The notes below the pieces were generated by a model. The model ran no database searches, was not told the DNA's origin, and saw nothing but the letters and a program-made list of their open reading frames with translations. From an uncultured Acidobacteriota bacterium (lineage in GTDB: Bacteria; Acidobacteriota; UBA6911; RPQK01; CBDAPI01), in assembly GCA_964569605.1 (NCBI GenBank), contig CAZMUJ010000071.1, forward strand, positions 12,313 through 76,312: a stretch of 64,000 nt of DNA. Reading direction: 5' to 3'. This document shows, one piece after another, positions 21,313 to 41,287 of the stretch. Every line of letters begins with the position of its first letter. Within the stretch, counting starts at the first letter, position 1. A program made the translations under genes and the position numbers.

Positions 21313-21388
<76 letters not shown>

Positions 21389-25967: not shown

Positions 25968-26597
25968 CTACGTTTTTTCAACCAATGGTGTCTCGTTAAC
26001 CTCTTCCCAAGTGCCTTTCACTTCTCCATCGGTTAGGTTGCATTGGTGGGGAAATTTCAGGCTGCAATTTTTTATCGGCTTTCGAAGCTTAGGGTCCATC
26101 AACTCATGAATGTCCAGTTTCATAGCTTCCCTAGAGTATGCCGCAATGTCAAGAATCCCTGTGTCCATTCGGATGGCGTCCTCTGGACATGCTTCGACAC
26201 AATATCCGCAGTAAACACAAACCCCCAGGTCAATGTCAAAACGAACTGGATACTTTTCTACGTGGGGATCAGGGTGCTCACCTGGAACAATAGTAATGCA
26301 TTTGGCTGGGCAAACTGTCTCGCAGAGCATACACCCAACACAACGTGGGGTTTTATCCTCTCTGAGGGTGAGTCGATGGCGACTTCGGAAACGTGACATG
26401 AGAGGCCTTAACTCATCAGGGTACTGAACGGTAACTGAGGCTGGAAGGTGTTTGAACCGACCCACAAAATGGAGCATGTGAAGAAAAAGATTACGGAAGA
26501 AATGTGCAGAGGTTATCTTAAGGCCTAATAGAATCTGGGGAATATATAATTTCTCCCAGAAAGTCAATTCCGGCCGAGAAACAACTTTCACAGTCAT
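25968..26597 (-). CDS. nuoI: NADH-quinone oxidoreductase subunit I
   Basis: Two 4Fe-4S motifs (CVGCMLCETVCP; CVYCGYCVEACP). Start set at MTVKV, where ATG overlaps the nuoH stop as ATGA. The longer upstream ORF is rejected. Confidence 0.85.
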   Translation of the reverse strand: MTVKVVSRPELTFWEKLYIPQILLGLKITSAHFFRNLFLHMLHFVGRFKHLPASVTVQYPDELRPLMSRFRSRHRLTLREDKTPRCVGCMLCETVCPAKCITIVPGEHPDPHVEKYPVRFDIDLGVCVYCGYCVEACPEDAIRMDTGILDIAAYSREAMKLDIHELMDPKLRKPIKNCSLKFPHQCNLTDGEVKGTWEEVNETPLVEKT

Positions 26598-27691
26598 CAC
26601 TGGATCTCCCCAAGAAAAACAAGGACTACGGCAGTGATGATGACATTCGCAACGGAAATGGGAAAGAGGCCTTTCCAACCTAAACTCATGAGCTGATCAT
26701 AGCGAAAACGAGGCAGGCTCCAGCGAAGTTGCATGAAAAACCAACAAAAAATTATGACTTTGGTCGAAAAACTGAGGACTCCAAGAAGAACATAAACAAG
26801 ATTGGACATGGGAAGCTCAGCACCCCAAGGGAAGTGAAAACCATTCGGCGTCAGAAAAGGCACCTGCCAGCCGCCAAAAAAAAGAGTTGTAGCAAGACAC
26901 GCTACCATGATTGTTTCTAAAAAGTCTGTTAAGAAAAACATTCCAAACTTCATTCCACTATATTCTACAAAATATCCTACAATCTCTGACTCACCTTCCG
27001 GTAAATCAAATGGAAGCCTTTTTGTTTCAGCAAGGGCTGCGGTTAAGAAGATAATAAAAGCCACTGGCTGGGTTAGAACTCCCCAGAAAGGCAGCCAGCC
27101 ACCAATGAGGTGTCCCTGGGCACGTACCAGTTCACCCAGATCCATAGTGCCATACACCATAATTACCCCAATTATGGAAATCCCCAATGCAATCTCATAA
27201 GAGATCATCTGAGCTGTGGCCCTTAACCCACCCATAATCGCGTAGTTGCTGTGCGAGGCAAAACCGGCCAATATCACACCATAAACGCCCAGTGAAAGCA
27301 TCGCGAAGACATATAGAAGAGCTGCATCGATCTTGGCAACTTGGAGATCGATAACTAAATTCTCACTCAGAATAAGACGGTCACCAAATGGGATCGCTGC
27401 AAAGGCTACCAAGGCAAAAAATACCGAAAATAGAGGAGCCAGAAGATGGAGCGTTTTATCAGCTCCTTTAGGAACTATGTCCTCTTTGGTAAACATTTTC
27501 AGTGCATCAGCCAAGCCGTGAAAGATGCCCAGAAACCGAAATCCAAAAATCGAGGCACGGTTAGCACCAATCCGATCCTGGATCAGTGCCGATTGCTTTC
27601 TCTCAACCCAAGTATGAAACCCTGCAAAGTTCAATATTCCAAAAAAAACAATTCCTGCCAGAGCCAACTTAATGATAAGGATTTCCATCAT
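26597..27691 (-). CDS. nuoH: NADH-quinone oxidoreductase subunit H
   Basis: Polytopic membrane protein with a NuoH/ND1 motif (LAETKRLPFDLPEGESEIV). Confidence 0.9.
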   Translation of the reverse strand: MMEILIIKLALAGIVFFGILNFAGFHTWVERKQSALIQDRIGANRASIFGFRFLGIFHGLADALKMFTKEDIVPKGADKTLHLLAPLFSVFFALVAFAAIPFGDRLILSENLVIDLQVAKIDAALLYVFAMLSLGVYGVILAGFASHSNYAIMGGLRATAQMISYEIALGISIIGVIMVYGTMDLGELVRAQGHLIGGWLPFWGVLTQPVAFIIFLTAALAETKRLPFDLPEGESEIVGYFVEYSGMKFGMFFLTDFLETIMVACLATTLFFGGWQVPFLTPNGFHFPWGAELPMSNLVYVLLGVLSFSTKVIIFCWFFMQLRWSLPRFRYDQLMSLGWKGLFPISVANVIITAVVLVFLGEIQ

Positions 27692-27698
27692 GGCAAGC

Positions 27699-29321
27699 CT
27701 ACTCCGGACTCCTTTTCGATAAACTTAGGTTAACCCCTTGGAGACCTATAGTTTTATAATTCAATCCTTGAAAAGGACCCTCCAACCTAGCAAGACCCTG
27801 GAAAACCTCTTCCGGGGTTTCCCAGCCCAAAGAAATATCTAACTTCGTGGCCAACTGTAAAAGCATGCGCCAATCTTCCCAAGAGTCCTGGAAAGGTGGG
27901 AAGGCATGTCCTATGCGCTGAATCCGACCATGGCAGTTCACAAAGGTCCCATCCTTTTCCATATAGGCTGCCGTGGGAAGCGCCCAATGTGCCAATGAAA
28001 CGGTACTATTCTCATTGGTTCCAGAAAAGACAAAGAGACGTAACTTTTCTGAAACTTGACGCATCTTCTTTTCCCCAAACAGTTTCACTAAATCATGCCC
28101 CAGTACCCACAGGATGTCTAATTCGCCAGAAATCGCCTCATCCACCAGTTGCTCTGCCGTTGGTTTGTTTGGACCGACTAGACCTAAAAGGGTTGCACCT
28201 GTAGTGTTCGGGTTCTTGTCGGCTTTGATCAGGAAGTCATCGCTGGAGCCAGCCTCTTCGGGAACAGAGACAGCAACCCGGGCGCCTAAAACATTCTGAA
28301 ATATTTCCCTGACCAAGAAAAGTTCTTCATTGGTTAGTTGTGCGGAAGCGATCACCCCGAAGGAATTTTCTGCTCCCTTCCGGGCACTACTTTCCCCCTT
28401 ATTCAACTCCCTTATAGCAGCTGCAATAACTGTTAGGGCTTGCTCCCAGTTAGCATCGAATTCGCCACTCACCTTACCAAGTCTTCCTTGATCAACCCAC
28501 CCAAAACCATAACGTCCTTCATCACACAACCACCACTGGTTAACTTTTGGGTTGGTGCGAGGCTTGACACGCACGACCCGGGCTCCGTTATTTAAATGGG
28601 GTCTGTCGAGCACAAAATGGAGATCCATGTTACAGCCTTGACTACAACCATTGCAGATGGTTGGAACGGAAGAGAGATACCAAACTCTGGCTTTAAAGCG
28701 AAAATCTGATTCCGTTAAGGCTCCCACAGGACAAATGTCGACCACATTAGCTGAATAAGGATTGTCCAGTACATCACCGGGGCAGAGCCCTAGCTCGGCG
28801 CTATCCCCACGATTAAAGATACCGAATTCTCCCGTTCCGGTAATCTCGTCTGTAAACCTAACGCAGCGCGAACACAGGATACAGCGTTCCTGATCCAGCA
28901 TCACATGGGGACCAAGTTTGACTGCCTTTTTCTTTTTTACCTTATGTTCTCTAAATCTAGGATCATATAACCCAAAGTTCATGTAGAAATTTTGCAGGTC
29001 GCACTCCCCGGACTGGTCACAGACGGGACAATCGAGTGGATGGTTGGCTAAAAGAAATTCCAAAACTGCACGGCGGCCAGCCTCAACCTTTTCACTTTTC
29101 GTGTGCACAATCATTCCTTCTGTTACAGGAAGATTACAGGCAATTTGAAGCTTTGGACTATTTTCTACATCCACCAGACAAATCCGACAGTTTCCTGCGA
29201 TGGAGAGACCCGGATGATAACAATAACGAGGAATAAAGGTTCCTAACTCCTCAGCAGCCTGAATGACCGTGGTTCCCTCTGGAACAGTTAGTTCGTGGCC
29301 GTCGATGCTCAATCTAGGCAT
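27699..29321 (-). CDS. nuoG: NADH-quinone oxidoreductase subunit G (short form, 540 aa)
   Basis: N-terminal 2Fe-2S motif (CYHPGLSIAGNCRICLV) and 4Fe-4S motifs (HPLDCPVCDQSGEC; CILCSRCVRF). It lacks most of the molybdopterin-like C-terminal extension seen in E. coli NuoG. Confidence 0.85.
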   Translation of the reverse strand: MPRLSIDGHELTVPEGTTVIQAAEELGTFIPRYCYHPGLSIAGNCRICLVDVENSPKLQIACNLPVTEGMIVHTKSEKVEAGRRAVLEFLLANHPLDCPVCDQSGECDLQNFYMNFGLYDPRFREHKVKKKKAVKLGPHVMLDQERCILCSRCVRFTDEITGTGEFGIFNRGDSAELGLCPGDVLDNPYSANVVDICPVGALTESDFRFKARVWYLSSVPTICNGCSQGCNMDLHFVLDRPHLNNGARVVRVKPRTNPKVNQWWLCDEGRYGFGWVDQGRLGKVSGEFDANWEQALTVIAAAIRELNKGESSARKGAENSFGVIASAQLTNEELFLVREIFQNVLGARVAVSVPEEAGSSDDFLIKADKNPNTTGATLLGLVGPNKPTAEQLVDEAISGELDILWVLGHDLVKLFGEKKMRQVSEKLRLFVFSGTNENSTVSLAHWALPTAAYMEKDGTFVNCHGRIQRIGHAFPPFQDSWEDWRMLLQLATKLDISLGWETPEEVFQGLARLEGPFQGLNYKTIGLQGVNLSLSKRSPE

Positions 29322-31108
29322 GGAATAGTCTCCTGTTTCATAGCAGATCTGCTACTTCGAATGTATTCTTCGAACTCATCCCGAAATTTAGTGATGTAGG
29401 ATTGAACTGGCCATGCAGCGGCATCTGCAAAAACACATATTGTCTTGCCCTCCATATCTTTAGCGATGGCAAGAAGGTCATCCAAATCCCGCAGACGACC
29501 ATTCCCTCCGACAATGCGACGCATGATTCGATGGACCCATCCAGTGCCCTCACGGCAAGGTGAACATTGTCCACAAGATTCATCTGCGAAAAATCGAGCC
29601 GCAGAGTTAAGTGCCTCTACCATACAGGTACTCTCATCCATCACAATCACTCCCCCTGAACCAGCCATGCTACCTGCTGCAGCCAAGGAATCGAAATCCA
29701 TGGCCACATCGATTTCATCTGCAGTTAGAATCTTGGCTGAAATACCCCCTGGGATGACAGCCTTGAGCTTTTTGCCATCACGAACGCCACCGGCCTTTTC
29801 AATCAGTTTTTCCAGAGTTATGGATACTGGCTCCTCATAAACTCCAGGACAAGCAACATGCCCCGCTACACAGAACAGGCGGGTGCCTCCCTGTGAGGCC
29901 GTCCCAATGGTGGCAAAACGATCCGCTCCATTACGGAGAATAAAAGGGACACAAGCCAGTGTTTCTACGTTATTAACGATGGTGGGAGAGTCAAAAAGTC
30001 CTGAAATTGCAGGAAAGGGGGGCTTGAGCCTGGGAAAACCCTTTCCGCCCTCTAGGGAAGTGAGAAGTGCTGTCTCCTCTCCACAGATATATGCCCCTGC
30101 GCCCCTATGGATAACAATGTCCAGATCAAAACCGGTCTCCTGGATGTCTTTTCCCAACCAGTTTTCAGAATAAGCCTCATCTAGAGCACGCTGCAACCGT
30201 TTAGCCGAGCGAAAGTATTCACCACGAACATAGACATAGCCTTTTTGGCTACCAATGGCAAACGCAGCAATAATCATGCCTTCAATCAGAACATGCGGAT
30301 CACGTTCCATGATGTAACGATCTTTGAACGTGCCCGGCTCACCTTCATCCGCATTTGCCACAAGGTATTTTGCTTTTCCTGGCGCCTTAGGAACAAACGA
30401 CCATTTCCTGCCCGCGGGAAATCCTGCACCTCCAAGACCACGCAGGTTAGGCTTAGAAACTTCCTCAATTACTTTTTCTGGCGTCATAGAGGTCAGAACT
30501 TTCCTTGCCGCCATGTATCCACCATCAGCAATGTAGTCTTTTAGCCAAGTTCCCTTTGGGTTTTTAAAACGGGTAGAGAGCACTGGACCGTTAGTGGAAA
30601 TATATGGCATTGGTTCGGGTAGTGGCGAAGAATCTTCTGGGGGCTTGAGGGCCTCCCGAAGAACAAGCTCTAGGGTTTTACCTTTTAAAGGACCAATAAA
30701 GGTTTCATCGAGTTGGGCCATAGGTGACATTTCGCATGCACATAGACACTCTACTTCGGAGAGAGTAACTTCCCCTCCGGGGGTGGTCTCCCCCGGGCTA
30801 ATTCCCAAACTGTTTTGGATTTTGACTAAAACATCCGAAGCACCACGCAACAAACAGGGCAAACTCGTACACACCCGAAGCTCGCGACGGCCAACTGGCT
30901 TCATATGAAACATGCCATAAAAAGAGACCGCCTCATGTACCTGAGTCCGCGATACACCAAGGACTTTCCCCACCCAGACTTCTGCTTCTTGAGAGATATA
31001 CCCAAAGTTTTCCTGGACAAGCCATAACAACGGCAACATGGCTGCCTTACTTTTCTCATAACGCTTCAAAATCTCTTGGGCTTTGGACTGCAAATCGGAA
31101 ATTTTCAC
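29309..31108 (-). CDS. nuoEF: fused NuoE-NuoF (24 kDa 2Fe-2S subunit + 51 kDa FMN/NADH subunit)
   Basis: N-terminal roughly 165 aa carry NuoE Cys ligands (CTSLPC ... CLCAC). The remainder carries NuoF motifs GLGGAGFPAGRKW and ESCGQCSPCREG. It is a single 599-aa ORF with no internal stop. Confidence 0.85.
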   Translation of the reverse strand: MKISDLQSKAQEILKRYEKSKAAMLPLLWLVQENFGYISQEAEVWVGKVLGVSRTQVHEAVSFYGMFHMKPVGRRELRVCTSLPCLLRGASDVLVKIQNSLGISPGETTPGGEVTLSEVECLCACEMSPMAQLDETFIGPLKGKTLELVLREALKPPEDSSPLPEPMPYISTNGPVLSTRFKNPKGTWLKDYIADGGYMAARKVLTSMTPEKVIEEVSKPNLRGLGGAGFPAGRKWSFVPKAPGKAKYLVANADEGEPGTFKDRYIMERDPHVLIEGMIIAAFAIGSQKGYVYVRGEYFRSAKRLQRALDEAYSENWLGKDIQETGFDLDIVIHRGAGAYICGEETALLTSLEGGKGFPRLKPPFPAISGLFDSPTIVNNVETLACVPFILRNGADRFATIGTASQGGTRLFCVAGHVACPGVYEEPVSITLEKLIEKAGGVRDGKKLKAVIPGGISAKILTADEIDVAMDFDSLAAAGSMAGSGGVIVMDESTCMVEALNSAARFFADESCGQCSPCREGTGWVHRIMRRIVGGNGRLRDLDDLLAIAKDMEGKTICVFADAAAWPVQSYITKFRDEFEEYIRSSRSAMKQETIPCLD

Positions 31109-32481
31109 CGGTCGAGCTCTCCACCAATCATATTGACTGACCCAAAAGTTGGGACTAAATCTGCGAGCATGTCACCGACTAAAAGCTTGGGTAAAGCCGA
31201 CATAATTGCGAAACAAGGCGGCCGAACTCTAACCCTATAAGCACGGCTAGTCCCATCACTTACAACGTAGAAGCCTAGTTCCCCATTCGCCCCTTCCACT
31301 GGAAAATATACCTCTCCTTTGGGAGGGCTGAGACCATGACCATACATAACCAGTTTAAAGTGGTGCATTAATCCCTCAATGTTGCCATAAGTGTCTTCTT
31401 TAGGAGGCAGAAAGGCTCTCTTTTCGTCAGTAGCTATAGAAGGATGTTGGGAGCGGCCAGAACCTTCAAGCGTTGGAGCAACCACAGCATTTCCGTCCGA
31501 TATAGCAGCTATGTTGCCGATCTTTGCCAGATCCACCATCTCTGCAGCGGGGATGGGCTTTCCTGTTTCAGGGTGGACCTGTAGTGGCCCAGCTGGGATA
31601 TCCTGAAGTGCCATCTCCACAATTCGCATTGACTGCTCCATTTCCTCCATACGCACCAGATATCGATCCATGTTATCCCCTTGGGTCCCAATAGGAACTT
31701 CAAAAGGAATCCGGTCATAAACAGCATAAGGACAATCCTTACGTACATCATAGTTTGCGCCACTTGCACGAAGAAAAGGTCCAGTTATCCCATAGGAAAT
31801 AGCGTCCTCTGCCGAGATGATACCAGTTCCATTCATTCGATCTGTAAAGATCCGATTGCGAGTGAGAAGGCCGGATGCCTCATCCAGAACTTTCCGGGTT
31901 TCCTTGAATGCCTTTTGGCAAGCCTCTGAAAACTCCTCTGGAAGATCAGCCTTCACACCACCTACGCGGCAGTAGCTAACCGTCAGACGGGCACCAGATA
32001 CCATCTCAACCAACTCCCAAAGATATTCCCGGGCCTTAATCATGTAGAGAAACACACTGAAAGCACCCAGTTCCATGGCAGTAGCCCCCACACACGTAAG
32101 ATGGTCCGAGATTCGGGAAATCTCTGAGAGAATGACCCTTATGTAGTGACAACGTTCCGGAACTGAAATTCCCAAAAGTTTCTCAATGGTCATACAATAG
32201 CCCATGTTGTTAATGAGTGGAGAAACGTAGTTGAGGCGGTCTGTGTAAGGAATCACACCATTGTAGTCCACTACTTCTGCCATCTTCTCAAAGCCACGGT
32301 GAAGATAACCAATTTCCACATCAGTATTTTGAATCTTTTCGCCATCGAGCCCTGCCACAATCCTAACAATCCCATGCATTGCTGGGTGTGCGGGCCCTAT
32401 GTTAAGCATCATATCCCGCGTCTCAAGATCTGTTGCAGAACTTTGTGCGGTTTCCCTAGGTGAGTCTGAATCTAAAGTCAT
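31105..32481 (-). CDS. nuoD: NADH-quinone oxidoreductase subunit D (49 kDa)
   Basis: 458-aa ORF resembling NuoD (49 kDa subunit). It has an N-terminal extension of about 25-45 aa before the conserved NIGPAHPAMHG block, and its stop overlaps the nuoEF start. Confidence 0.9.
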   Translation of the reverse strand: MTLDSDSPRETAQSSATDLETRDMMLNIGPAHPAMHGIVRIVAGLDGEKIQNTDVEIGYLHRGFEKMAEVVDYNGVIPYTDRLNYVSPLINNMGYCMTIEKLLGISVPERCHYIRVILSEISRISDHLTCVGATAMELGAFSVFLYMIKAREYLWELVEMVSGARLTVSYCRVGGVKADLPEEFSEACQKAFKETRKVLDEASGLLTRNRIFTDRMNGTGIISAEDAISYGITGPFLRASGANYDVRKDCPYAVYDRIPFEVPIGTQGDNMDRYLVRMEEMEQSMRIVEMALQDIPAGPLQVHPETGKPIPAAEMVDLAKIGNIAAISDGNAVVAPTLEGSGRSQHPSIATDEKRAFLPPKEDTYGNIEGLMHHFKLVMYGHGLSPPKGEVYFPVEGANGELGFYVVSDGTSRAYRVRVRPPCFAIMSALPKLLVGDMLADLVPTFGSVNMIGGELDR

Positions 32482-32520
32482 AGGGTTTTAAAAAGACAGA
32501 AACAAGTAATGTAGGAACTT

Positions 32521-33647: not shown

Positions 33648-33960
33648 AACCTACCATTAGAACCCCAAGGAAAATACCCATTTCCACTAAACCCAACACT
33701 CCGAGCTGACGGTAGACAACGGCCCAAGGGTAGAGGAAAACAAGTTCAACATCGAACAAAATGAACAAAATGGCTGTGAGGTAGAACTTGATAGCCAGCT
33801 TTCCACCGGGAAGAGCAAAAGGGGTTTTCCCACATTCAAAAGGCTCTAACTTCACCACAGAGGGATTTTTTTTGCCCAGTGTAGAAGCCAAAAATATCAT
33901 TAGCCCAGTAATCCCTCCGGCCAAAACAAAAGCCACTACAATACCAAGATACTCAGTCAT
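33607..33960 (-). CDS. nuoA: NADH-quinone oxidoreductase subunit A
   Basis: 117-aa three-TM protein with a NuoA-like FDVELVFLYPW motif. Confidence 0.8.
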   Translation of the reverse strand: MTEYLGIVVAFVLAGGITGLMIFLASTLGKKNPSVVKLEPFECGKTPFALPGGKLAIKFYLTAILFILFDVELVFLYPWAVVYRQLGVLGLVEMGIFLGVLMVGFVYAWVNRALEWQ

Positions 33961-34050
33961 AGGATTTCCTTCGTCTCAATTATACACAGTACAAAAAACG
34001 CACTGGATTCTTTGCCCTCCAAGTTTTACGATTGAAATATTGAGTCTTTG

Positions 34051-35472
34051 TCATGGTGCCACTGTCCAAGACATTAGACTGCCCGGAAAAACACCACCAA
34101 TCACAGTAACCAGAGCAGCCAATACTAGAGCGAAAGATACCGCAAAAGAGTAGCTCTGAGGCTCCACATCATGAGCTTTGTGCATATACATCAAGACTCC
34201 AATTCTCAAATAGACAAAGGCTGAAATCACACTGCAAACTACTGCTAGAACAGCCAGGGAAAGATAACCCTCTCGTACAACGCTGAGGATGACACCAAAC
34301 TTTGCGGAGAAACCGGCCGTCGGTGGAATTCCTGTCAGAGACAAGAGAAAAAGCATCATCAAAGCTGCGATGCCTGGCCGCTGTTCCGCTAAACCCCGGA
34401 AACCCTTAAGAGTTTCGCCTCGCGAACCCAGTGCAATAACAATCCCAAAAGCACCTAGTGTCATAAATACATATAGAAAAGCATAGACCATAGTGGAAGA
34501 AATGCCTTCGGGGGTCCCTGAAATGAGCCCCAAAAGAGCATACCCTGCATGTGAGATTGAGGAATATGCAAGCAATCGTTTCATATTGGTCTGTGCAAGA
34601 ATAACGAAGCTCCCAAAGACGATAGATAGAGCAGCAATCACTGCAAGGATCAAAGCAAGGACATCGGCTTCAGAAACAAACGCGATTAAGCTGATCCGAC
34701 CTAGAACTGCTAGACCAGAAACTTTTGCTGCAGTCGCTAAAAATGCAGCGACCGGAACGCTCGCACCCTGGTAGGCGTCTGGGGCCCAGGCGTGAAAAGG
34801 AACCGCTGCAATCTTAAAGGTAAGTCCAGCAACCAACAAGCCAATCCCAACCAGAAGTATTGGATTACTGCCCAAATTCTCCTTGGACAGAGTTTCAGCA
34901 ATTTCTGTAAATGCGGTAGAGCCCGTCGTTCCGTAGACAAGAGCAATGCCATAAAGAAGAAAAGCTGAGGCAAAAGACGCAACAAGAAAATACTTAATAG
35001 CAGCCTCATTTGATCGCCGCTTCTCCACCGTGATACCGACCAAACTATAGGAGCACAGTGTCATCAACTCCAGACCCAAATATAAAGTCAAGAGATCCAA
35101 GGCTGAGACTGCAAACATCATTCCTATTGACGCTAAAAGAAGTAACGCATGGTACTCAGCAAACCGAAAACGCATTGTTCCGACAGGCCTGACAGAAAGA
35201 ATTATGACTAGGGCAAGTGCCACTGTAATTAAAACCTTAAAAAATTGGGAGTAACTATCTACGACAATCATGCCCCCAAACCCAGTTTGGGAACTCGGGG
35301 TCAGTACCCATCCTGAAGCCAAACCAGCAGCCAGCACTGAAAAAACAGCTAGCAAAGAGATTTGAGGGAGGTTCTGAATTCGGTGCCCTACAAGAAGAAA
35401 AATAAAGGAAAAAATGCAGAGAATTAACTCCGGCCAGATTAAGGTTAAATCTGAAAGACTCGCTACGTTCAC
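34051..35472 (-). CDS. nuoN: NADH-quinone oxidoreductase subunit N (antiporter-like)
   Basis: 473-aa antiporter-like protein with a NuoN-type motif WAPDAYQGASVPVAAFLATAAK. Confidence 0.75.
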   Translation of the reverse strand: MNVASLSDLTLIWPELILCIFSFIFLLVGHRIQNLPQISLLAVFSVLAAGLASGWVLTPSSQTGFGGMIVVDSYSQFFKVLITVALALVIILSVRPVGTMRFRFAEYHALLLLASIGMMFAVSALDLLTLYLGLELMTLCSYSLVGITVEKRRSNEAAIKYFLVASFASAFLLYGIALVYGTTGSTAFTEIAETLSKENLGSNPILLVGIGLLVAGLTFKIAAVPFHAWAPDAYQGASVPVAAFLATAAKVSGLAVLGRISLIAFVSEADVLALILAVIAALSIVFGSFVILAQTNMKRLLAYSSISHAGYALLGLISGTPEGISSTMVYAFLYVFMTLGAFGIVIALGSRGETLKGFRGLAEQRPGIAALMMLFLLSLTGIPPTAGFSAKFGVILSVVREGYLSLAVLAVVCSVISAFVYLRIGVLMYMHKAHDVEPQSYSFAVSFALVLAALVTVIGGVFPGSLMSWTVAP

Positions 35473-36932
35473 GGGGTGACTCCTCCAGCCAAAAGTTCTG
35501 CTACAGGAGCATGAAGATACGAAAGCACAAGTTCAGGGTAGAGCCCAAGACACAAGGCTAGTAAGACGAGAGGGGTAAGAGTAGCCACTTCACGAATGCT
35601 GAGCTCAAGTTGCAGACTTTCTAGTCCAGGATTAGTCTTTCCCATAACCATTCGATAAAAAAGCCAAACCAAGTAAGCAGTTCCGAGTACCACTCCCCAG
35701 ACAGCCATCACCCCTAACCATACTCTAGTTTGGAAAGCACTACTGATAATCAGAAACTCACCTACGAAGGCATTCAAGCCTGGGAATCCAGTCGCTGCTA
35801 GGCAAAAAAATGCTAGAAAAGAAGAATAGACCGGTGCCGCCCTGCCAACCCCCCCGTAGTCCTTAATTTCACGCGAGTGAGTACGTTCGTATATCATGCC
35901 TACACATAGGAAAAGCCCTGCAGAAAGAATACCGTGGTTGATCATCTGCAAGATCGCTCCTTCCACTCCACTCTGATTAAGAGTAAATATTCCCAGGGTT
36001 ACAAATCCCATGTGGCTTATGCTCGAAAAAGCAATAAGTCGTTTGACATCGGTTTGGACCAGTGTGACATAGGCCCCATAGACAATAGCCACCGCTGAAA
36101 TGAAAAGCATGGGCGTAAGGAATATTTGCACTGCCTCGGGCAAAATAGGAAGTGAAATCCTAAGAAATCCGTAGGCTCCCATCTTAAGAAGAATGCCAGC
36201 TAAAATAACACTTCCTGCCGTCGGGGCTTCTGTATGTGCATCCGGGAGCCAGGTGTGCACCGGAAACATTGGAACCTTAACAGCAAATGCTGCCAAAAAG
36301 GCCACAAAAAGCCAGACTTGGAAGCTGGGCTGAAGCTGGAAAGAACTTAGAGCCTTGAAGTCCAGAGTTCCACAATTATGATAGAGAGCGATCATGCCCA
36401 CTAACATCAAAACACTTCCTGCCAGTGTAAAAATCAAGAACTTGACTGCTGCATAGACTCGTCCCAAGCCTCCCCAAATACCAATAAGAAGAAAAAGAGG
36501 CACGATCATCAGTTCCCAAAAGATGAAAAAGAGAAACAAATTTGTGGCAGCAAAGAGCCCAACCATTGCGGTTTCAGCAACTAGAAGCGCAGCATAAAAC
36601 TCCTTGGTTCTGGTTTGCACTGCTGTCCATGAGCCACACACACAAAGAATGCTCAAAACAGTTGCGAGAAAAATAAATGGAAGACTAATACCATCCACTC
36701 CCATGCCATAGGAAACATTCCAATTCGGAATCCACTCTGCCATCTCAATGAATTGAAGTGCACTAGAGGATTTCTCAAAGCTCCAATAAAGAGGTGTTGA
36801 GAGCGTCAATGTCAATAAGGTCGTGCCCAATGCAATCCAGCGTGTATATCGTTCGTGGGCAACGAACAGAATTATCAAAGCCCCTAAAAATGGCAGAAAG
36901 GTTGTAACCGTTAGAACAGGATAGTCTGTCAT
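35469..36932 (-). CDS. nuoM: NADH-quinone oxidoreductase subunit M (antiporter-like)
   Basis: NuoM-type motif WLPDAHTEAPTAGSVILAGILLK. Start trimmed to MTDYPV so that ATG overlaps the upstream stop as ATGA. Confidence 0.75.
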   Translation of the reverse strand: MTDYPVLTVTTFLPFLGALIILFVAHERYTRWIALGTTLLTLTLSTPLYWSFEKSSSALQFIEMAEWIPNWNVSYGMGVDGISLPFIFLATVLSILCVCGSWTAVQTRTKEFYAALLVAETAMVGLFAATNLFLFFIFWELMIVPLFLLIGIWGGLGRVYAAVKFLIFTLAGSVLMLVGMIALYHNCGTLDFKALSSFQLQPSFQVWLFVAFLAAFAVKVPMFPVHTWLPDAHTEAPTAGSVILAGILLKMGAYGFLRISLPILPEAVQIFLTPMLFISAVAIVYGAYVTLVQTDVKRLIAFSSISHMGFVTLGIFTLNQSGVEGAILQMINHGILSAGLFLCVGMIYERTHSREIKDYGGVGRAAPVYSSFLAFFCLAATGFPGLNAFVGEFLIISSAFQTRVWLGVMAVWGVVLGTAYLVWLFYRMVMGKTNPGLESLQLELSIREVATLTPLVLLALCLGLYPELVLSYLHAPVAELLAGGVTP

Positions 36933-38698
36933 GATGATCTGATAACCAGTAAAGCACAAAGCGCGAGAACCGCTACTGCCATGATCAACCCATAGTGCTG
37001 AGCATTCCCACTCGCTGTGGTTCTCAGTGCCTGACTGAGAATCTGGGCTAGACGACCTACGCCTAGCATTGTTGAATCGACGACTCGTGTATCAAAATTG
37101 CGTAGGAAGTTGGCTACTCCTAACATGGGAGTTTTGATTAAACATTCATAGAATTCAGCTACATATCTAGACTCTAGACGTTCCAAAGGGCCCCGTATAA
37201 CCTTCATCGCACCCTCCGCTCCACGACGGTAAAACCAATCCGTATCGAGACTAATTTTTGGCTCTGGATCTAAATGCTTTAACAGTAGAAAAAACCCTAA
37301 TGCTGTAAATCCAAGCATAGCCAAGGTGCTAGTGATATGTTGCAGGGTGTAAGGAACATAATAAACAGAGTGTGGAAGGTGTTGGTAAAGTAATCCTGGA
37401 AAAACCCCAATCAATACACAGCCCAGTGCCGCCAGGCCCATGGCAATAATCATGTTTTTAGGCGGTTCTTCAGCGCGTAGGCCTGAGTCCTTTCCGAAGA
37501 ACATATAGTAGGGAAGCTTTAGGCCCGTGTGTAAAAATGTCCCCGCTGACGCCAAAGTTAACATGAGAAAAATCCATCCCAGATGAGCTTCAGCAGCAGC
37601 AGTCACTACCATAGACTTACTGACAAATCCACTGAAAAAAGGCATTGCTGAAATAGCAAAGGCTCCCACCATATAGAGTCCGAGTGTAATGGGCATAGTC
37701 CGGTACAACCCCCCCATATCACTGAGTTTTCGAAAATGGGTCATCTCCAAAACGGCTCCAACTCCCATAAAGAGAAGAGCCTTGTAAAGAATATGTGCAA
37801 AAGCATGCGCGGTAGCACCGTTCAAAGCTAGAGAGCTTCCAATGCCTACGCCGCAAACCATGTAACCAACCTGGCTAATGATATGGTATGCCAATAGACG
37901 CCGTGCGTCGTTTTCCAAAACGGCATAGACGACGCCGTAAATAGCCATTATGGCTCCTGCCCATATCAATAGTTCAGTGCCTGCAAATCCTCGAATCAAA
38001 GCATATACCGAAGATTTAGTAGTAAAGGCAGTCATAAAAACCGCACCGGTAACTGTTGCCTCTGGATAAGCATCCGGAAGCCACGCTCCAAGAGGTGGAA
38101 CAGCGGCGTTTATGAGAAAAGCAAGAAGTATTAGGGTCCAGGCCGGACCCCAAGAAAAAGCCTCCATGTCCTCAAAGACAATGGATCCTGTTTGAGACCA
38201 CTGGACTACAATTCCTGCAAGGAGAAGTAGACCACCAAACAAGTGGATTAACAGGTAACGAAAACCGGCTTTTACGGCGTTAGGTTTGCGACGCAACCAC
38301 AGAAGAAGAACTGAAGAGATTGCCATGAGTTCCCAAAATAGGAGAAGGGAAAGAAGGTCTCCAGCAAACGTAACACCGAGGGCACTACCTGCATAGGTTA
38401 AGGCCGTCACGTGCTGAGCAACTTGCTTAACATGTAGTGCATATATTATCCCCAAAAGAGTCATAATCGAGAAAATATAGGAAAAAACAAGGCTCAATTG
38501 GTCCACCCGGCCAAATACGAGATCTTGGCCAAGAAAATGTACCTGGCCATATATGCCCGGTGTCATTCGGAAGCAAGCGATTAGAGCAACGGCAGGCAGA
38601 AATAGCAATGCATACCTTCTCAGCCGACCTTTAAGCACGGGCAGGGCCCAAGCACCGAAAATAAGTAGTAATCCGGGATGAACCCACTCAAGAGTCAT
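36929..38698 (-). CDS. nuoL: NuoL-like antiporter subunit with C-terminal TM + long amphipathic helix + terminal TM
   Basis: 589-aa protein. N-terminal region is NuoL/MrpA-like. The C-terminal architecture (TM, about 100-aa amphipathic segment, final TM) matches the NuoL horizontal helix. The core motif is WLPDAYPEATVTGAVFMTAFTTK. Confidence 0.65.
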   Translation of the reverse strand: MTLEWVHPGLLLIFGAWALPVLKGRLRRYALLFLPAVALIACFRMTPGIYGQVHFLGQDLVFGRVDQLSLVFSYIFSIMTLLGIIYALHVKQVAQHVTALTYAGSALGVTFAGDLLSLLLFWELMAISSVLLLWLRRKPNAVKAGFRYLLIHLFGGLLLLAGIVVQWSQTGSIVFEDMEAFSWGPAWTLILLAFLINAAVPPLGAWLPDAYPEATVTGAVFMTAFTTKSSVYALIRGFAGTELLIWAGAIMAIYGVVYAVLENDARRLLAYHIISQVGYMVCGVGIGSSLALNGATAHAFAHILYKALLFMGVGAVLEMTHFRKLSDMGGLYRTMPITLGLYMVGAFAISAMPFFSGFVSKSMVVTAAAEAHLGWIFLMLTLASAGTFLHTGLKLPYYMFFGKDSGLRAEEPPKNMIIAMGLAALGCVLIGVFPGLLYQHLPHSVYYVPYTLQHITSTLAMLGFTALGFFLLLKHLDPEPKISLDTDWFYRRGAEGAMKVIRGPLERLESRYVAEFYECLIKTPMLGVANFLRNFDTRVVDSTMLGVGRLAQILSQALRTTASGNAQHYGLIMAVAVLALCALLVIRSS

Positions 38699-38951
38699 AA
38701 TATTCTTCCCGGCGCAGGAGCAAAGCTTTTCCTATTAATTTGGATACAACTATTATCACCATACAAGAAAACAATCCGTAAATAGCTCCCCAGCCTGGCA
38801 AGTCTTCAAACCAGAAATGGCCGTGAACACCGTGAAACAAACGAGGCAAAATAATTTCTCCAACTGCCACAAACACAAGGCCGACATAAAACCAAAACTT
38901 AAGATGTGCCAAACGGAATTGGTTCCTAAAAAAGTTTTTCGGTAACTTCAT
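38688..38951 (-). CDS. small two-TM membrane protein embedded in nuo cluster
   Basis: 87-aa ORF with two hydrophobic helices. It has 4-nt overlaps with the upstream antiporter-like gene and 11-nt overlap with the nuoL start, which suggests translational coupling. Confidence 0.45.
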   Translation of the reverse strand: MKLPKNFFRNQFRLAHLKFWFYVGLVFVAVGEIILPRLFHGVHGHFWFEDLPGWGAIYGLFSCMVIIVVSKLIGKALLLRREEYYDS

Positions 38952-40408
38952 TGCGTAACCCTCATCGCCAATTCCAACACAGGGGTTGGGTAGAGCCCTA
39001 GAAGAAGGCTTGCTGCAGCACTAATGGTTAGAGGTACAACCATCCAAGGAACTTCGTGAATCTCTTCGTTGGTCTTTTGAGCCCGTTCAAAATATGCTTT
39101 GTAAACAACAGGCCCAAGATAAGCTGCATTGAGAAACGAGCTTACTAGGAGTATCGCTAGCAGCGGGAAACTTTGCAACTCAATTGCTCCAAGAGCCAGG
39201 TACCATTTCGAAATACCCCCAGAAGTTCCTGGTATTCCTATTACACTTAGTGAGGCAATCGCAAAGGCTGCCATTGTCCACGGCATACGCCTTGCCAAGC
39301 CAGACATTTGACTAATTTCTGTTTTATGCGTTGACACATAAATAGAACCTGCACATAAGAAAAGTGTGATCTTAGATACAGCATGATTAGTGATGTGAGC
39401 AACCCCACCCAAAATCCCGCTATAATTCAGAAGTGCTGCGCCCAAAATTATGTAAGAAAGTTGGCTCACAGTGGAAAAAGCTAGCCTTGCCTTAAGGTTG
39501 TCTTGGCTAAGAGCCAGGATCGAACCAAATAGTATAGTTATAGCTGCAGCGCCCAGCGCAAGTTGGTCCGCTTTGATTTCACGCATTGCGTCAGAACCAA
39601 AAACAAACAAAAACACACGCAGCGTGGCAAACACACCGGTTTTGACTACGGCAACAGCATGCAACAATGCACTTACCGGGGTAGGTGCGACCATGGCGGC
39701 AGGCAACCAGCTATGCAAGGGGAAAAGTGCATTCTTAGCAAATCCAAACAGGAACAAACCAAAGATCAGAAAGAGGAGAAGTGGATAGGATGCAATATCA
39801 TTAGCGTTTAGCATCCCACCTTTTTGAAACTCAAGAGTTCCGGTAACATTGTAGATCAGTACAATGGCAGCTATGAGAAAAAGCTTGGCCGTCCCCAAAA
39901 GATAAATAACATACTTGCGGGCGCCCGACCTGGCCTCAGCCGTTTCCTTATGACTCACCAAGGGATAGGTGACCAAGGTTAACGCCTCATAAAAGAGAAA
40001 CAGCGTGAAAAGATTCTTTGAGAAGGCGACTCCTATGGTTGCGGCAAGAGCCAGGGCAAAGCAAGAAAAGTAACGAGTTTGTGCATGCTCTTCAAGAGAA
40101 CGCATGTACCCGATTGAGTAAAACGAGGTAAGAATCCACAACACCGTAGCTCCAGATGCAAAGAGAAGCCCAAAAGCATCCACGCGAAAAGCTAGTTCGA
40201 TTCCAGGCAAAAGTTTGAAGAGCAAAAATTCCGGCATATTACCTACGAGAACCGCTGGGATCATACTAGCCACTAATGCAACCATTGATACGCCGGCAGC
40301 AATAGACCAGAACTCTCTAAGGTTTGGTCTGGACTTGCCTGTGCACGCAATCAATAGGGCGCCAGCAGCAGCAACTAAAATCACGAGAAGAGGAGTAATC
40401 GTATTCAC
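38948..40408 (-). CDS. additional antiporter-like subunit (NuoL/MrpD-type core, no long C-terminal helix)
   Basis: 486-aa protein with a FYEAL block and the motif WLPAAMVAPTPVSALLHAVAVVKTG (Asp of WLPDA replaced by Ala). It is the fourth antiporter-like ORF in the cluster. Confidence 0.7.
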   Translation of the reverse strand: MNTITPLLVILVAAAGALLIACTGKSRPNLREFWSIAAGVSMVALVASMIPAVLVGNMPEFLLFKLLPGIELAFRVDAFGLLFASGATVLWILTSFYSIGYMRSLEEHAQTRYFSCFALALAATIGVAFSKNLFTLFLFYEALTLVTYPLVSHKETAEARSGARKYVIYLLGTAKLFLIAAIVLIYNVTGTLEFQKGGMLNANDIASYPLLLFLIFGLFLFGFAKNALFPLHSWLPAAMVAPTPVSALLHAVAVVKTGVFATLRVFLFVFGSDAMREIKADQLALGAAAITILFGSILALSQDNLKARLAFSTVSQLSYIILGAALLNYSGILGGVAHITNHAVSKITLFLCAGSIYVSTHKTEISQMSGLARRMPWTMAAFAIASLSVIGIPGTSGGISKWYLALGAIELQSFPLLAILLVSSFLNAAYLGPVVYKAYFERAQKTNEEIHEVPWMVVPLTISAAASLLLGLYPTPVLELAMRVTQ

Positions 40409-40433
40409 AATTTTTTCTTCACTTCTATTTCTG

Positions 40434-40742
40434 TCACCATTTAAGGTCAGTCAAATCGGCCACACTTGCCCCAGGGTTGTTTCTATTCAAAGCTATCACT
40501 AACCCTAGTCCAACCCCCACCTCTGCTGCCGCCACTGCAATAACAAAAAGGGCCAAAATCTGCCCTCTTGGATCATTAAGATGACAACTGAATCCAGCAA
40601 GACTAAGGTTTACCGCATTTAACATAATTTCAACTGAAATCAACATAAGGATAAGGTTGCGACGGGCCAGAAACCCAAACACACCTACACCAAAAAGGAT
40701 CGCACTAAGGGCTAGTACTGTTCCCAAAGGAACTATCATCAC
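40434..40742 (-). CDS. nuoK: NADH-quinone oxidoreductase subunit K
   Basis: 102-aa three-TM protein with conserved Glu positions (SVEIM, AAAEVG). Confidence 0.85.
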   Translation of the reverse strand: MMIVPLGTVLALSAILFGVGVFGFLARRNLILMLISVEIMLNAVNLSLAGFSCHLNDPRGQILALFVIAVAAAEVGVGLGLVIALNRNNPGASVADLTDLKW

Positions 40743-41287
40743 TCAGTCCTCCTCTTGGCAAGAATAACTGCACTAACAATGGCAGCTAAGAGGATTAGAG
40801 AAGTTATCTCAAAAGGAAGTGCAAAAGGACCAAAAAGAGCAAGGCCTGTTTCTGAAAGACTACCTAAGGACGATCCCTGCTCCAAGGAGGAGAGCCGATT
40901 TTCCACAACGACTTGAGGGGAACTATTTTCAACCGGGTCAAATGTCTCAATCAAGGATAGCCAAGCTAGAGCTCCAAATCCTAAACTCCCAAGAATAGCG
41001 AAAGGCCAATGACGCCCATACTTTGACTGAGCTCCCTCACCGGATAAATCAAGTAGCATCAAAACAAAAAGGTAAAAAATCAAGATAGCCCCAGCGTAAA
41101 CAATCACTTGAACTGCCGCCAGAAACTCTGCTCTTAATAAAAGAAAAAGGCCCGCTATATGCAAGAAGAGCGCCAGAACCCAGAGCATACTGTGGACAGG
41201 GTTCTTACGAGTTACAGCCAAAATGGCACTAGTGACACTACCAAGCGCCAAATAATAAAAGGCAATCTGTGCAGTAAAAAAGATCAT
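40739..41287 (-). CDS. nuoJ: NADH-quinone oxidoreductase subunit J
   Basis: 182-aa protein with NuoJ motifs (NPVHSML, VIVYAGAILIF); 4-nt overlap with nuoK. Confidence 0.85.
   Translation of the reverse strand: MIFFTAQIAFYYLALGSVTSAILAVTRKNPVHSMLWVLALFLHIAGLFLLLRAEFLAAVQVIVYAGAILIFYLFVLMLLDLSGEGAQSKYGRHWPFAILGSLGFGALAWLSLIETFDPVENSSPQVVVENRLSSLEQGSSLGSLSETGLALFGPFALPFEITSLILLAAIVSAVILAKRRTE

What the first reader, a model, noticed from the sequence alone, without database searches (positions are those of the whole stretch)
25968..41287. Complex I gene cluster in circularly permuted order (J-K-...-L-M-N then A-I) on one strand
All 15 nuo ORFs are contiguous and co-directional on the minus strand. 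The membrane-arm genes nuoJ and nuoK, the antiporter-like genes and nuoN come first, followed after a gap of about 90 bp (33961-34050) by nuoA-B-C-D-EF-G-H-I. Canonical bacterial operons run A to N. This arrangement implies either a rearrangement that placed a nuoJ-N module upstream of nuoA-I, or two tandem transcription units. Most gene junctions within each module overlap by 1-4 nt (ATGA or 4-nt overlaps), so each module is probably translationally coupled. The 90-bp nuoN-nuoA gap could hold an internal promoter.
Basis: partly seen in the sequence, partly recalled or inferred. Interest (0 to 1): 0.6.

Follow-up and report, generated by a model that had tools for sequence, protein, structure and literature searches.

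The report
Permuted "green-type" complex I operon
This is an intact respiratory complex I gene cluster of the already described "green complex I" type: the membrane-arm genes come first and the usual NuoL subunit is replaced by three genes shared with Mrp ion antiporters, so the odd gene order is an old, widespread arrangement and not a local rearrangement.

Summary
Fifteen co-directional minus-strand ORFs (41287 to 25968) run nuoJ-K-[three genes]-M-N, then a 90-nt gap, then nuoA-B-C-D-EF-G-H-I.

- There is no canonical nuoL. In its place are an MrpD-like gene (486 aa), a conserved 87-aa two-helix membrane protein with no family assignment, and a 589-aa antiporter-like gene with a NuoL-type lateral-helix tail. 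That makes four antiporter-like subunits.
- The order is not local. Every one of 80 species-level loci (Acidobacteriota, Planctomycetota, one Longimicrobiales) shows it as far as its DNA extends. A rhizobial plasmid cluster does too, and the literature calls that type "green complex I", noted for its "peculiar rearrangement of gene order".
- The three-gene cassette also ends stand-alone Mrp antiporter operons.

The nuoN|nuoA junction is the only consistent intergenic gap and the only point where relatives differ (inversion, 4-6 kb insertions). It carries a conserved -10-like element (TGTGTATAAT in the window). That element stays with nuoA when the modules are separated. An internal nuoA promoter is therefore likely but not shown.

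Verdict: known kind, new member (fused NuoEF, short NuoG). Moderate-to-low interest.

The parts
40739..41287 (-). nuoJ (182 aa), first gene of the cluster
   Evidence: Pfam Oxidored_q3, 126 bits against a cut-off of 33. The best NCBIfam hits are all NuoJ models.
40434..40742 (-). nuoK (102 aa); overlaps nuoJ by 4 nt
   Evidence: Pfam Oxidored_q2. NF004320 NuoK scores 104 bits against a cut-off of 57. Glutamates E38 and E74 are present.
38948..40408 (-). MrpD-like antiporter subunit 'X486' (486 aa). It has no lateral helix and keeps the full set of charged channel residues.
   Evidence: Pfam Proton_antipo_M, plus Proton_antipo_N at 24.1 bits, just under its 24.5 cut-off. The best NCBIfam hit is NF006236 'cation/H+ antiporter subunit D', 630 bits; the NuoL model TIGR01974 scores 204 against a cut-off of 407.5. 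The best PDB hit is 6u8y_H, the MbsH subunit of the P. furiosus MBS complex (8e-43). E141, K225, H250, K256, H338, H342, K346 and K401 are invariant in 77 sequences. It is 54% identical to the rhizobial MrpD1 and 44-52% identical to the second-to-last antiporter-like subunit of stand-alone Mrp operons.
38688..38951 (-). 's87', an 87-aa two-helix membrane protein; overlaps X486 by 4 nt and Y589 by 11 nt
   Evidence: No Pfam, NCBIfam or PDB match. Present at this position in every related locus that reaches it (80 of 80, at 45-69% identity) and in the rhizobial cluster (42% identity, 3e-15). E49, S62, S70 and K71 are invariant and E32 nearly so. The AF2 model is a helical hairpin with pLDDT 66. 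The family has 730 clusters at 50% identity, almost all small stand-alone proteins. Distant members sit between the last two antiporter-like genes of Mrp operons.
36929..38698 (-). 'Y589', a 589-aa antiporter-like subunit with a NuoL/MrpA-type C-terminal TM15, lateral helix and TM16. The TM7 lysine is replaced by Asn197.
   Evidence: NF009310 scores 734 bits against a cut-off of 564, over its full length. The best PDB hit is 6u8y_X, the MbsH' subunit that carries helix HL (4e-33; PMC7684303). Residues 508-581 align without gaps to NdhF 577-650, and residues 509-582 align with one gap to Nqo12 530-602; both matches are weak (E 0.05 and 0.8). N197 is invariant in 80 sequences. The rhizobial MrpD2 (N195) and two stand-alone Mrp homologues have the same Asn.
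35469..36959 (-). nuoM. The longest ORF is 496 aa. The likely start is the ATG at 36932, giving 487 aa and an ATGA overlap with Y589.
   Evidence: TIGR01972 scores 580 bits against a cut-off of 264. In-frame start codons are listed. An independent gene call on an identical metagenome contig uses the 487-aa start.
34051..35472 (-). nuoN (473 aa), last gene of the membrane-arm module
   Evidence: TIGR01770 scores 411 bits against a cut-off of 333.
33961..34050 (-). The 90-nt nuoN-nuoA spacer. It carries a -10-like element TGTGTATAAT at 33988-33979 (TATAAT at 33984-33979) and a Shine-Dalgarno-like GAAGGA at 33972-33967.
   Evidence: Sequence read. This is the only junction with a consistent positive gap in relatives: median 64 nt, range 10-306, plus two insertions of 4-6 kb. 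A strict motif is found in 38 of 67 gaps, against 1.4 expected in shuffles. The motif stays upstream of nuoA where nuoN is not adjacent, in L010, L062 and L068. No stable hairpin is predicted (z = +1.6).
33607..33960 (-). nuoA (117 aa)
   Evidence: Pfam Oxidored_q4, 115 bits.
33102..33647 (-). nuoB. The longest ORF is 181 aa; alternative in-frame starts lie at codons 8 and 15.
   Evidence: Pfam Oxidored_q6. The N2 cluster ligands are present: CCGME at 47, C113 and C142.
32521..33105 (-). nuoC (194 aa)
   Evidence: Pfam Complex1_30kDa, 151 bits.
31105..32481 (-). nuoD (458 aa), with about 50 extra residues compared with the rhizobial NuoD and the Pfam model
   Evidence: Pfam Complex1_49kDa, 336 bits. 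The motifs GPAHPAMHG and DRLNY are present.
29309..31108 (-). fused nuoE-nuoF (599 aa)
   Evidence: 2Fe-2S_thioredx at 10-152, then Complex1_51K, SLBB and NADH_4Fe-4S. The N1a cysteines, the FMN motif GLGGAGF, the NADH motif GAYICGE and the N3 cysteines are present. It is a single uninterrupted ORF in 59 related loci.
27699..29321 (-). nuoG, short form (540 aa, against 859 aa in the rhizobial cluster)
   Evidence: Pfam Fer2_4, NADH-G_4Fe-4S_3, Fer4_Nqo3, Molybdop_Fe4S4 and a partial Molybdopterin domain. Cysteine groups for four clusters are present. It aligns to the rhizobial NuoG in two blocks.
26597..27691 (-). nuoH (364 aa)
   Evidence: Pfam NADHdh, 349 bits.
25968..26678 (-). nuoI. The longest ORF is 236 aa. 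The likely start is the ATG at 26597, giving 209 aa and a 1-nt overlap with the nuoH stop codon.
   Evidence: Two CxxCxxCxxxC motifs are present. In-frame start codons are listed.
41288..41851 (-). 564-nt non-coding region upstream of nuoJ, the presumed site of the main promoter. It contains a TATAATTGA element (about 41410-41402) and a terminator-like hairpin at 41465-41445.
   Evidence: Sequence read; hairpin. Many relatives carry a CBS-domain gene in this position; the window does not. No conserved motif was found here across relatives.

Best explanation
The cluster encodes a complete, intact NADH:quinone oxidoreductase of the 'green complex I' type.

Shown:
- All subunit identities.
- The fused NuoEF and the short NuoG.
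- Intact ligand motifs for the Fe-S clusters, FMN and NADH, and the conserved NuoD His and Tyr motifs of the quinone site.
- The absence of a canonical NuoL.
- The conservation of the permuted order in more than 80 species of several phyla and in a rhizobial plasmid cluster.

Also shown: NuoL is replaced by a three-gene cassette. It consists of an MrpD-like pump subunit, a conserved 87-aa two-helix protein, and a subunit that carries the lateral helix. The same three genes, in the same order, end stand-alone Mrp cation/proton antiporter operons.

Inferred:
- The enzyme has four antiporter-like subunits in its membrane arm (N, M, X486, Y589). The Y589 lateral helix clamps them, and s87 is a small subunit at the X486/Y589 interface.
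- The cluster is expressed as two tandem units: J-N from a promoter upstream of nuoJ, and A-I from a conserved promoter in the 90-nt gap. Read-through from nuoN is probable, because no terminator is evident.

Whether the fourth subunit raises the H+/e- ratio is open. The helix-bearing subunit invariably has Asn in place of the TM7 lysine found in the E. coli NuoL, NuoM and NuoN used for comparison.
For: - Subunit assignment.
- Cofactor motifs.
- Order J-K-X486-s87-Y589-M-N-A-B-C-D-EF-G-H at 45-92% amino-acid identity in all 80 loci returned from 185,579 species genomes, each as far as its DNA extends.
- Same order and same small gene in a Phyllobacterium plasmid, annotated by NCBI as J, K, 'antiporter subunit D family', hypothetical, 'Na+/H+ antiporter subunit D', M, N, a 148-nt gap, then A-G.
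- Origin of the cassette: Mrp operons of the form mrpE-F-G-MbhD/E-MnhB-mrpC-APLS-APLS-small-APLS (APLS = antiporter-like subunit gene). Their last three genes are 44-52%, 35-41% and 55-57% identical to X486, s87 and Y589.
- Lateral helix: full-length NF009310 match, a NuoL TIGR01974 alignment that runs to residue 584, and an essentially gap-free alignment of the tail to Nqo12 and NdhF. The homologous MbsH' helix HL holds two pumps together in the MBS structure (PMC7684303).
- Seam and promoter.
Against: - No transcript data exist. The -10-like element could have another role.
- In many relatives the gap is only 10-45 nt, so any -35 region would lie inside nuoN.
- The rhizobial gap lacks the motif.
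- No shared motif was found upstream of nuoJ.
- That the four antiporter-like subunits assemble into one complex is inferred from gene linkage only.
- The AF2 model of Y589 has pLDDT below 50 for residues 437-589, so the helix geometry and subunit order are unknown.
- Lateral-helix length does not track subunit number. The region measures 54 aa and roughly 90 aa in two three-pump Mrp operons, against 83 aa here.
- I could not read the founding paper on green complex I. Its definition comes from papers that cite it.
Confidence: 0.8

Rival explanations
1. The 15 genes form one polycistronic operon with no internal promoter. The 90-nt gap is only a spacer, and its conserved element serves translation, RNA processing or mRNA stability for nuoA.
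For: No terminator-like structure lies in the gap. All genes are co-directional and most junctions are tight. Gaps in relatives are as short as 10-45 nt. The simple sigma-70 scan did not call a promoter there.
Against: The element fits TAnnnT, often as a perfect TATAAT, and several relatives have a TTGCGG/TTGCAG hexamer 16 nt upstream. It is retained 20-45 nt upstream of nuoA in the three loci examined where nuoN is not adjacent. In those loci nuoA-I must have its own promoter.
Confidence: 0.25
2. The order results from a recent local rearrangement, or from an assembly artefact, in this genome.
For: None beyond the departure from the canonical A-to-N order.
Against: The order is identical in all 80 related loci, each as far as its DNA extends, and in a rhizobial plasmid cluster. 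An independent metagenome contig that encodes an identical Y589 shows the same order from J to N and begins the next gene after a similar gap.
Confidence: 0.01
3. The J-N block encodes a separate Mrp-like antiporter, and A-I encodes a separate soluble or peripheral NADH dehydrogenase module. On this reading they are two complexes, not one.
For: The X486-s87-Y589 cassette also occurs in stand-alone Mrp operons. The two blocks are separable in a few relatives.
Against: The block has Nuo-type J, K, M and N that pass Nuo models. It has none of MrpE, F, G or B. Subunits A-I alone lack the J, K, M and N partners of NuoH and NuoA. The two blocks are adjacent in 67 of the 69 loci where both were found, and are on the same strand in all 69. 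L068, where the A-B block is inverted, was not counted there.
Confidence: 0.03

Closest known systems
Rhizobial 'green complex I' (Degli Esposti & Martinez-Romero 2016, FEMS Microbiol Ecol 92:fiw084; described in PMC7415380 and PMC9040806). The example used here is the Phyllobacterium zundukense plasmid NZ_CP017942.
   Same: The gene order is the same: J-K-MrpD-small ORF-MrpD-M-N, a gap, then A-B-C-D-.... Two MrpD-like proteins replace NuoL. The small 84-87-aa gene is orthologous (42% identity). X486, Y589 and M are 51-56% identical, against 28-38% to E. coli. Both have Asn at the TM7 position.
   Different: - NuoE and NuoF are fused here and separate in the rhizobial cluster.
- NuoG is 540 aa here and 859 aa there.
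- nuoH and nuoI are co-directional here and on the opposite strand there.
- NuoC and NuoD carry about 30 and 50 extra residues here.
- B, C, D and G are only 32-44% identical, no closer than to E. coli.
- The location is chromosomal here (dnaA and gyrBA are nearby) and on a plasmid there.
- The -10-like gap motif is absent from the rhizobial gap.
- The host here is probably an Acidobacteriota member.
Stand-alone multi-MrpD Mrp antiporter operons (mrpE-F-G-MbhD/E-MnhB-mrpC-D-D-small-D'), loci L086 and L090
   Same: The last three genes match X486, s87 and Y589 in order, in their short overlaps, and in sequence (44-52%, 35-41% and 55-57% identity). They also have the TM7 Asn.
   Different: These operons have no Nuo redox or quinone module and no NuoJ, M, N, A or H. 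They have MrpE, F, G, B and C, which the window cluster lacks.
Canonical 14-subunit bacterial complex I (nuoA-N; E. coli, T. thermophilus)
   Same: All redox and quinone-module subunits and J, K, M and N are present, with conserved cofactor ligands. The lateral-helix tail aligns to Nqo12 and NdhF essentially without gaps.
   Different: The order is circularly permuted. No protein passes a NuoL model. There are four antiporter-like subunits instead of three, plus an extra small subunit.
'2M' complex I of Nitrospira and others (Chadwick et al. 2018, ISME J 12:2668; as described in PMC9040806)
   Same: It has a fourth antiporter-like subunit in a complex I gene cluster.
   Different: There the extra subunit is a second NuoM, and NuoL has a 26-aa insertion in its lateral helix. 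Here there is one NuoM, no NuoL, and no insertion in the aligned tail.
Pyrococcus furiosus MBS (PDB 6U8Y), MbsH/MbsH' pair
   Same: These are the best solved-structure matches for X486 (MbsH) and Y589 (MbsH'). MbsH' carries TM15, helix HL and TM16, which hold the two pumps together.
   Different: The homology is distant (E 1e-33 to 1e-43). MBS is a ferredoxin:polysulfide enzyme with an Mrp sodium module. MbsH' has Lys at the TM7 position.

Membership tests
Green complex I | Rearranged gene order: the membrane-arm genes nuoJ...nuoN precede nuoA... | tested here: met
   establish the order in the window. One search shows the same order in the rhizobial reference cluster. [quoted passage not shown]
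Green complex I | [quoted passage not shown] | tested here: met
   X486 and Y589 hit 'antiporter subunit D' models best (NF006236, NF009310) and fail the NuoL models. The definition comes from PMC9040806.
Green complex I | Specific sequence relationship (best-hit pairing) to the rhizobial cluster | tested here: met
   Each window protein has its best hit on the positional counterpart in the plasmid cluster (nuoH was not compared). X486, s87, Y589 and M are clearly closer to the rhizobial proteins than to E. coli; B, C, D and G are not.
Green complex I | NuoG with an additional 4Fe-4S cluster (as stated in PMC4967309) | tested here: inconclusive
   The window NuoG has four cysteine groups, including C223/C226/C230/C266 in a Molybdop_Fe4S4 domain. 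It is 320 aa shorter than the rhizobial NuoG. I could not read which cluster the authors meant.
Green complex I | Coexists with a standard Nuo14 operon in the same genome; up-regulated in symbiosis or low oxygen | not testable with these tools
   Only 64 kb of this genome is available, and it holds no second nuo cluster. There are no expression data.
Canonical Nuo14 complex I | A NuoL subunit (TIGR01974 / NF005141) and the order nuoA to nuoN | tested here: not met
   TIGR01974 scores 204 bits (X486) and 149 bits (Y589) against a cut-off of 407.5. NF005141 scores 208 and 166 against 556. The order is permuted.
2M complex I (Chadwick 2018) | A second NuoM and a 26-residue insertion in the NuoL lateral helix | tested here: not met
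   Only the 496-aa protein passes the NuoM model. The Y589 tail aligns to NdhF without a gap and to Nqo12 with a single gap.
Mrp cation/proton antiporter operon | Presence of MrpE, MrpF, MrpG and MrpB (MNHE, MrpF_PhaF, PhaG_MnhG_YufB, MnhB domains) | tested here: not met
   None of the 15 ORFs has these domains. They are present in the stand-alone operons L086 and L090.

The most novel reading that the evidence does not exclude
The Acidobacteriota/Planctomycetota form may be a distinct, very abundant soil and marine respiratory enzyme with three special properties:
- An Mrp-derived cassette (a full pump X486, the small charged two-helix subunit s87, and the Asn-TM7 clamp subunit Y589) gives complex I a fourth working ion channel. 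This would change the ion/electron stoichiometry (5 H+ per 2 e-) or the ion specificity.
- The membrane arm and the redox arm are expressed from separate promoters as exchangeable modules.
- The N|A seam is the point where the two modules recombine between lineages.
Probability: 0.3. Interest if true: 0.55.

Novelty: new member of a known kind. Interest (0 to 1): 0.3.

Why it matters
The permuted order itself is not news. It is the hallmark of a complex I type described in rhizobia in 2016.

What this analysis adds:
- The type is widespread outside Alphaproteobacteria.
- The NuoL replacement is a three-gene cassette shared with Mrp antiporter operons. It includes an uncharacterised, conserved 87-aa membrane protein.
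- The module seam carries a conserved promoter-like element.

No enzyme of this type has a solved structure or a measured pumping ratio, as far as I could find. A cultured carrier would therefore be a useful test of how the number of antiporter-like subunits, and the TM7 lysine, relate to proton pumping.

Tried and rejected
- AF2 model of Y589 from a 29-sequence alignment. The C-terminal 150 residues have pLDDT below 50, so I did not use it for lateral-helix length or a fold search.
- Lateral-helix length as a ruler for subunit order. One Mrp homologue has a region about 29 aa shorter, which suggested 'one extra subunit equals about 26 aa'. A second three-pump Mrp operon has a region as long as the window's, so I dropped the idea.
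- s87 against Pfam, NCBIfam, a PDB profile search and an hhalign comparison with Y589. Nothing was significant.
- The idea that s87 is a split-off C-terminus of a longer MrpD. The 150 best-scoring representatives are almost all small, stand-alone proteins of 43-180 aa.
- Terminator in the gap. None was found.
- A shared -10-like motif upstream of nuoJ in relatives. Not found.
- Flanking synteny. It is not conserved.
- The founding papers (fiw084 and PMC6194058) are not held. A search for papers describing the acidobacterial form found none.
- Organism identity. It is inferred only from the best hits and an unbootstrapped NJ tree.

Full report
**Observation.** The ORF list shows 15 consecutive minus-strand ORFs from 41287 down to 25968.
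- Pfam and NCBIfam identify them, in order of transcription, as NuoJ, NuoK, an antiporter-like protein of 486 aa (X486), an 87-aa protein with no family hit (s87), an antiporter-like protein of 589 aa (Y589), NuoM, NuoN, then NuoA, B, C, D, a fused NuoE-NuoF (599 aa), a short NuoG (540 aa), NuoH and NuoI.
- The nuoN-nuoA spacer is exactly 90 nt, at 33961-34050.
- Five junctions overlap by 4 nt. Two more do (4 nt and 1 nt) if the in-frame ATGs at nuoM codon 10 and nuoI codon 28 are used. An independent gene call on an identical metagenome contig uses the nuoM ATG.
- The remaining junctions overlap by 11 or 13 nt, or are gaps of 7-39 nt. A/B is uncertain.

**What replaces NuoL.**
- X486 scores best against 'cation/H+ antiporter subunit D' models. 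Y589 passes NF009310 'Na+/H+ antiporter subunit D' over its full length (734 bits against a cut-off of 564).
- Both fail the NuoL models: TIGR01974 scores 204 and 149 bits against 407.5.
- Their best solved-structure matches are the MbsH and MbsH' subunits of the Pyrococcus MBS complex. There, MbsH' carries TM15, helix HL and TM16, which hold the two pumps together (PMC7684303).
- The Y589 tail (508-582) aligns to the lateral helix plus TM16 of NdhF without a gap and of Nqo12 with one gap. The E-values are weak.
- In an alignment with E. coli NuoL, M and N, X486 keeps every charged channel residue: E141, K225, H250, K256, H338, H342, K346 and K401.
- Y589 keeps E123, K228, H298, H302, K306 and K361 but has Asn197 where the TM7 lysine should be.
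- These residues are invariant in 77 and 80 sequences respectively.
- s87 is a helical hairpin (AF2 pLDDT 66). E49, S62, S70 and K71 are invariant and E32 nearly so. It has no Pfam, NCBIfam or PDB relative.

**Integrity.** Several ligand sets and motifs are present:
- the N2 ligands of NuoB;
- the His and Tyr motifs of NuoD;
- the N1a ligands, the FMN and NADH motifs, and the N3 ligands of NuoEF;
- four cysteine groups in NuoG;
- both ferredoxin motifs of NuoI;
- the two glutamates of NuoK.

Nothing suggests decay.

**Is the order local?** No.
- A scan of one genome per species (185,579 species) with Y589 returned 263 confirmed relatives.
- Each of the best 80 loci shows the order J-K-X486-s87-Y589-M-N-A-B-C-D-EF-G-H as far as its DNA extends, at 45-92% amino-acid identity. 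The NuoEF fusion and the short NuoG are also conserved.
- The records are Acidobacteriota (several classes), Planctomycetota and one Longimicrobiales.
- In an NJ tree of Y589, the Planctomycetota fall in at least four places inside the Acidobacteriota. This suggests lateral transfer, or binning errors.
- The window groups with an Acidobacteriota clade at about 80% identity. A 7-kb metagenome contig encodes an identical Y589.
- Flanking genes are not syntenic. In the window they are housekeeping genes: gyrA, gyrB, dnaA, a BamB-like gene and TPR genes.

**Comparison with what is known.**
- A protein search of plasmids found Y589 homologues at 55-58% identity on rhizobial megaplasmids.
- The annotated Phyllobacterium cluster reads nuoJ, nuoK, 'antiporter subunit D family', hypothetical (84 aa), 'Na+/H+ antiporter subunit D', nuoM, nuoN, a 148-nt gap, nuoA, B, C, D, E, F, G. 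A CBS-domain gene and nuoI-nuoH follow on the other strand.
[quoted passage not shown] One review says it shows a 'peculiar rearrangement of gene order' (PMC7415380). [quoted passage not shown] Spero et al. classed the second rhizobial isozyme as 'other' (PMC4453560).
- Each window protein pairs best with its positional counterpart (nuoH was not compared). X486, Y589 and M are 51-56% identical to the rhizobial proteins, against 28-38% to E. coli. B, C, D and G are 32-44% identical, no closer than to E. coli.
- I could not read the founding paper. I found no paper that describes the acidobacterial form.

**Origin of the cassette.**
- A profile of s87 finds 730 clusters at 50% identity among 1.84 billion representatives. 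Those listed are almost all small stand-alone proteins.
- Three distant members lie in stand-alone Mrp operons of the form mrpE-F-G-MbhD/E-MnhB-mrpC, then two antiporter-like genes, then the small gene. Where the contig continues, a third antiporter-like gene follows and overlaps the small gene by 8 nt.
- The last three genes of two such operons are 44-52%, 35-41% and 55-57% identical to X486, s87 and Y589. That is as close as the rhizobial complex I proteins. Both carry the TM7 Asn.
- The NuoL replacement is therefore a three-gene Mrp-type cassette, and the Asn is a trait of that subunit class.

**The seam.**
- Across relatives, every junction except N|A has a median of -41 to +11 nt. N|A is always positive: median 64 nt, range 10-306.
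- It is also the only breakpoint found among the 80 loci. L068 has nuoA-B inverted upstream of nuoJ. L010 and L062 have 6.0 and 4.3 kb inserted. L012, L006 and L022 have no nuoA after nuoN. Separately, the rhizobial cluster has nuoH and nuoI on the other strand.
- The gaps share little sequence except one element 9-45 nt upstream of nuoA in most relatives. It is TGTGTATAAT in the window (33988-33979) and in several close relatives, and TGTACACT, TGTATATT, TGTACAAT or CGTATAAT elsewhere. All variants fit TAnnnT.
- A strict pattern occurs in 38 of 67 gaps, against 1.4 in shuffles with a maximum of 5. These loci are related, so the counts are not independent. The surrounding gap sequence is, however, not conserved.
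- Some relatives have a TTGCGG/TTGCAG hexamer 16 nt upstream of the element.
- In L010, L062 and L068, where nuoN is not adjacent, ATGATGTA(T/C)A(C/G)T is still in place upstream of nuoA. The element therefore belongs to nuoA.
- The window gap has no stable hairpin (z = +1.6).
- The best reading is a promoter for nuoA-I inside a cluster that may also be read through from nuoJ.
- The rhizobial gap lacks the element. No shared element was found upstream of nuoJ.

**Mechanism and open points.**
- Gene linkage implies one enzyme with four antiporter-like subunits.
- The papers read here state or assume extra pumping capacity for such enzymes.
- The invariant Lys-to-Asn change in the clamp subunit makes it uncertain that Y589 pumps in the canonical way.
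- One possibility is a division of labour: X486 pumps and Y589 clamps.
- Subunit order could not be resolved. The AF2 model is unreliable in the tail, and lateral-helix length does not scale with subunit number in the Mrp homologues.

**Verdict.** The cluster is a new, non-proteobacterial member of a known kind. It differs from the rhizobial form in its fused NuoEF, short NuoG and co-directional nuoH-I. Interest is moderate to low: the headline feature is already described. The Mrp-cassette origin, the s87 subunit, the Asn-TM7 trait and the conserved seam element are useful details that I did not find in the papers I could read.

Noticed in passing
L001 6680-7279 and 28 other related loci; L081 23929-24369; L090 11046-11447; window 41288-41851: A CBS-domain gene of about 145 aa lies just upstream of nuoJ, on either strand, in 29 related loci. 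A homologue (38% identity, 9e-25) sits in the rhizobial cluster between nuoG and nuoI. Another CBS gene follows a stand-alone Mrp operon. The window has no such gene; it has 564 nt of non-coding DNA there instead.
   Followed up: partly
window 36929-38698 (Asn197 of Y589): The TM7 lysine found in E. coli NuoL, M and N is an invariant asparagine in the helix-bearing subunit. This holds for 80 sequences, the rhizobial MrpD2 and two stand-alone Mrp homologues. The structurally closest protein, MbsH', has lysine at this position.
   Followed up: yes
window 43953-51543: gyrA (43953-46451), gyrB (46485-48863) and dnaA (50206-51543) lie on the same strand, a few kb upstream of the cluster. The complex I genes therefore sit near the likely replication origin and are co-oriented with dnaA. 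The ORF at 49045-50154, between gyrB and dnaA, was not tested.
   Followed up: no
L071, L001, L002, L020, L052: nuoN-nuoA gaps: Several close relatives carry short tandem repeats (GTTCCAC units, for example GTTCCACGTTCCACGTTCCAC) in the nuoN-nuoA gap, upstream of the -10-like element. The window gap has none.
   Followed up: no
window 41445-41465 and about 41402-41410: A terminator-like hairpin with a T-run (GATTCCGAGTCACACGGAGTC then CCTTTTTT) lies on the minus strand upstream of nuoJ. A TATAATTGA element follows, similar to the TATAATTGA in the nuoN-nuoA gap. There is no minus-strand gene immediately upstream for the hairpin to terminate.
   Followed up: no
window 31105-32481, 32521-33105, 26597-27691: NuoD has about 50 extra residues and NuoC about 30, compared both with the Pfam models and with the rhizobial proteins. 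NuoH has about 45 extra residues compared with its Pfam model. NuoG lacks about 320 residues compared with the rhizobial NuoG.
   Followed up: partly
L024, L038, L054, L065, L066, L074, L076-L080, L019: In an NJ tree of Y589, the Planctomycetota and Longimicrobiales copies are scattered among the Acidobacteriota at 68-76% identity to the window protein. This points to repeated lateral transfer of the whole cluster, or to mis-binned MAG contigs.
   Followed up: partly
window 61954-63291 and neighbours 60246-63973: A SufB/SufD Fe-S assembly gene (SUFBD_core) lies at 61954-63291, with adjacent same-strand ORFs that may be the rest of a suf operon. A tRNA-Lys (CTT) is at 21313-21388.
   Followed up: no
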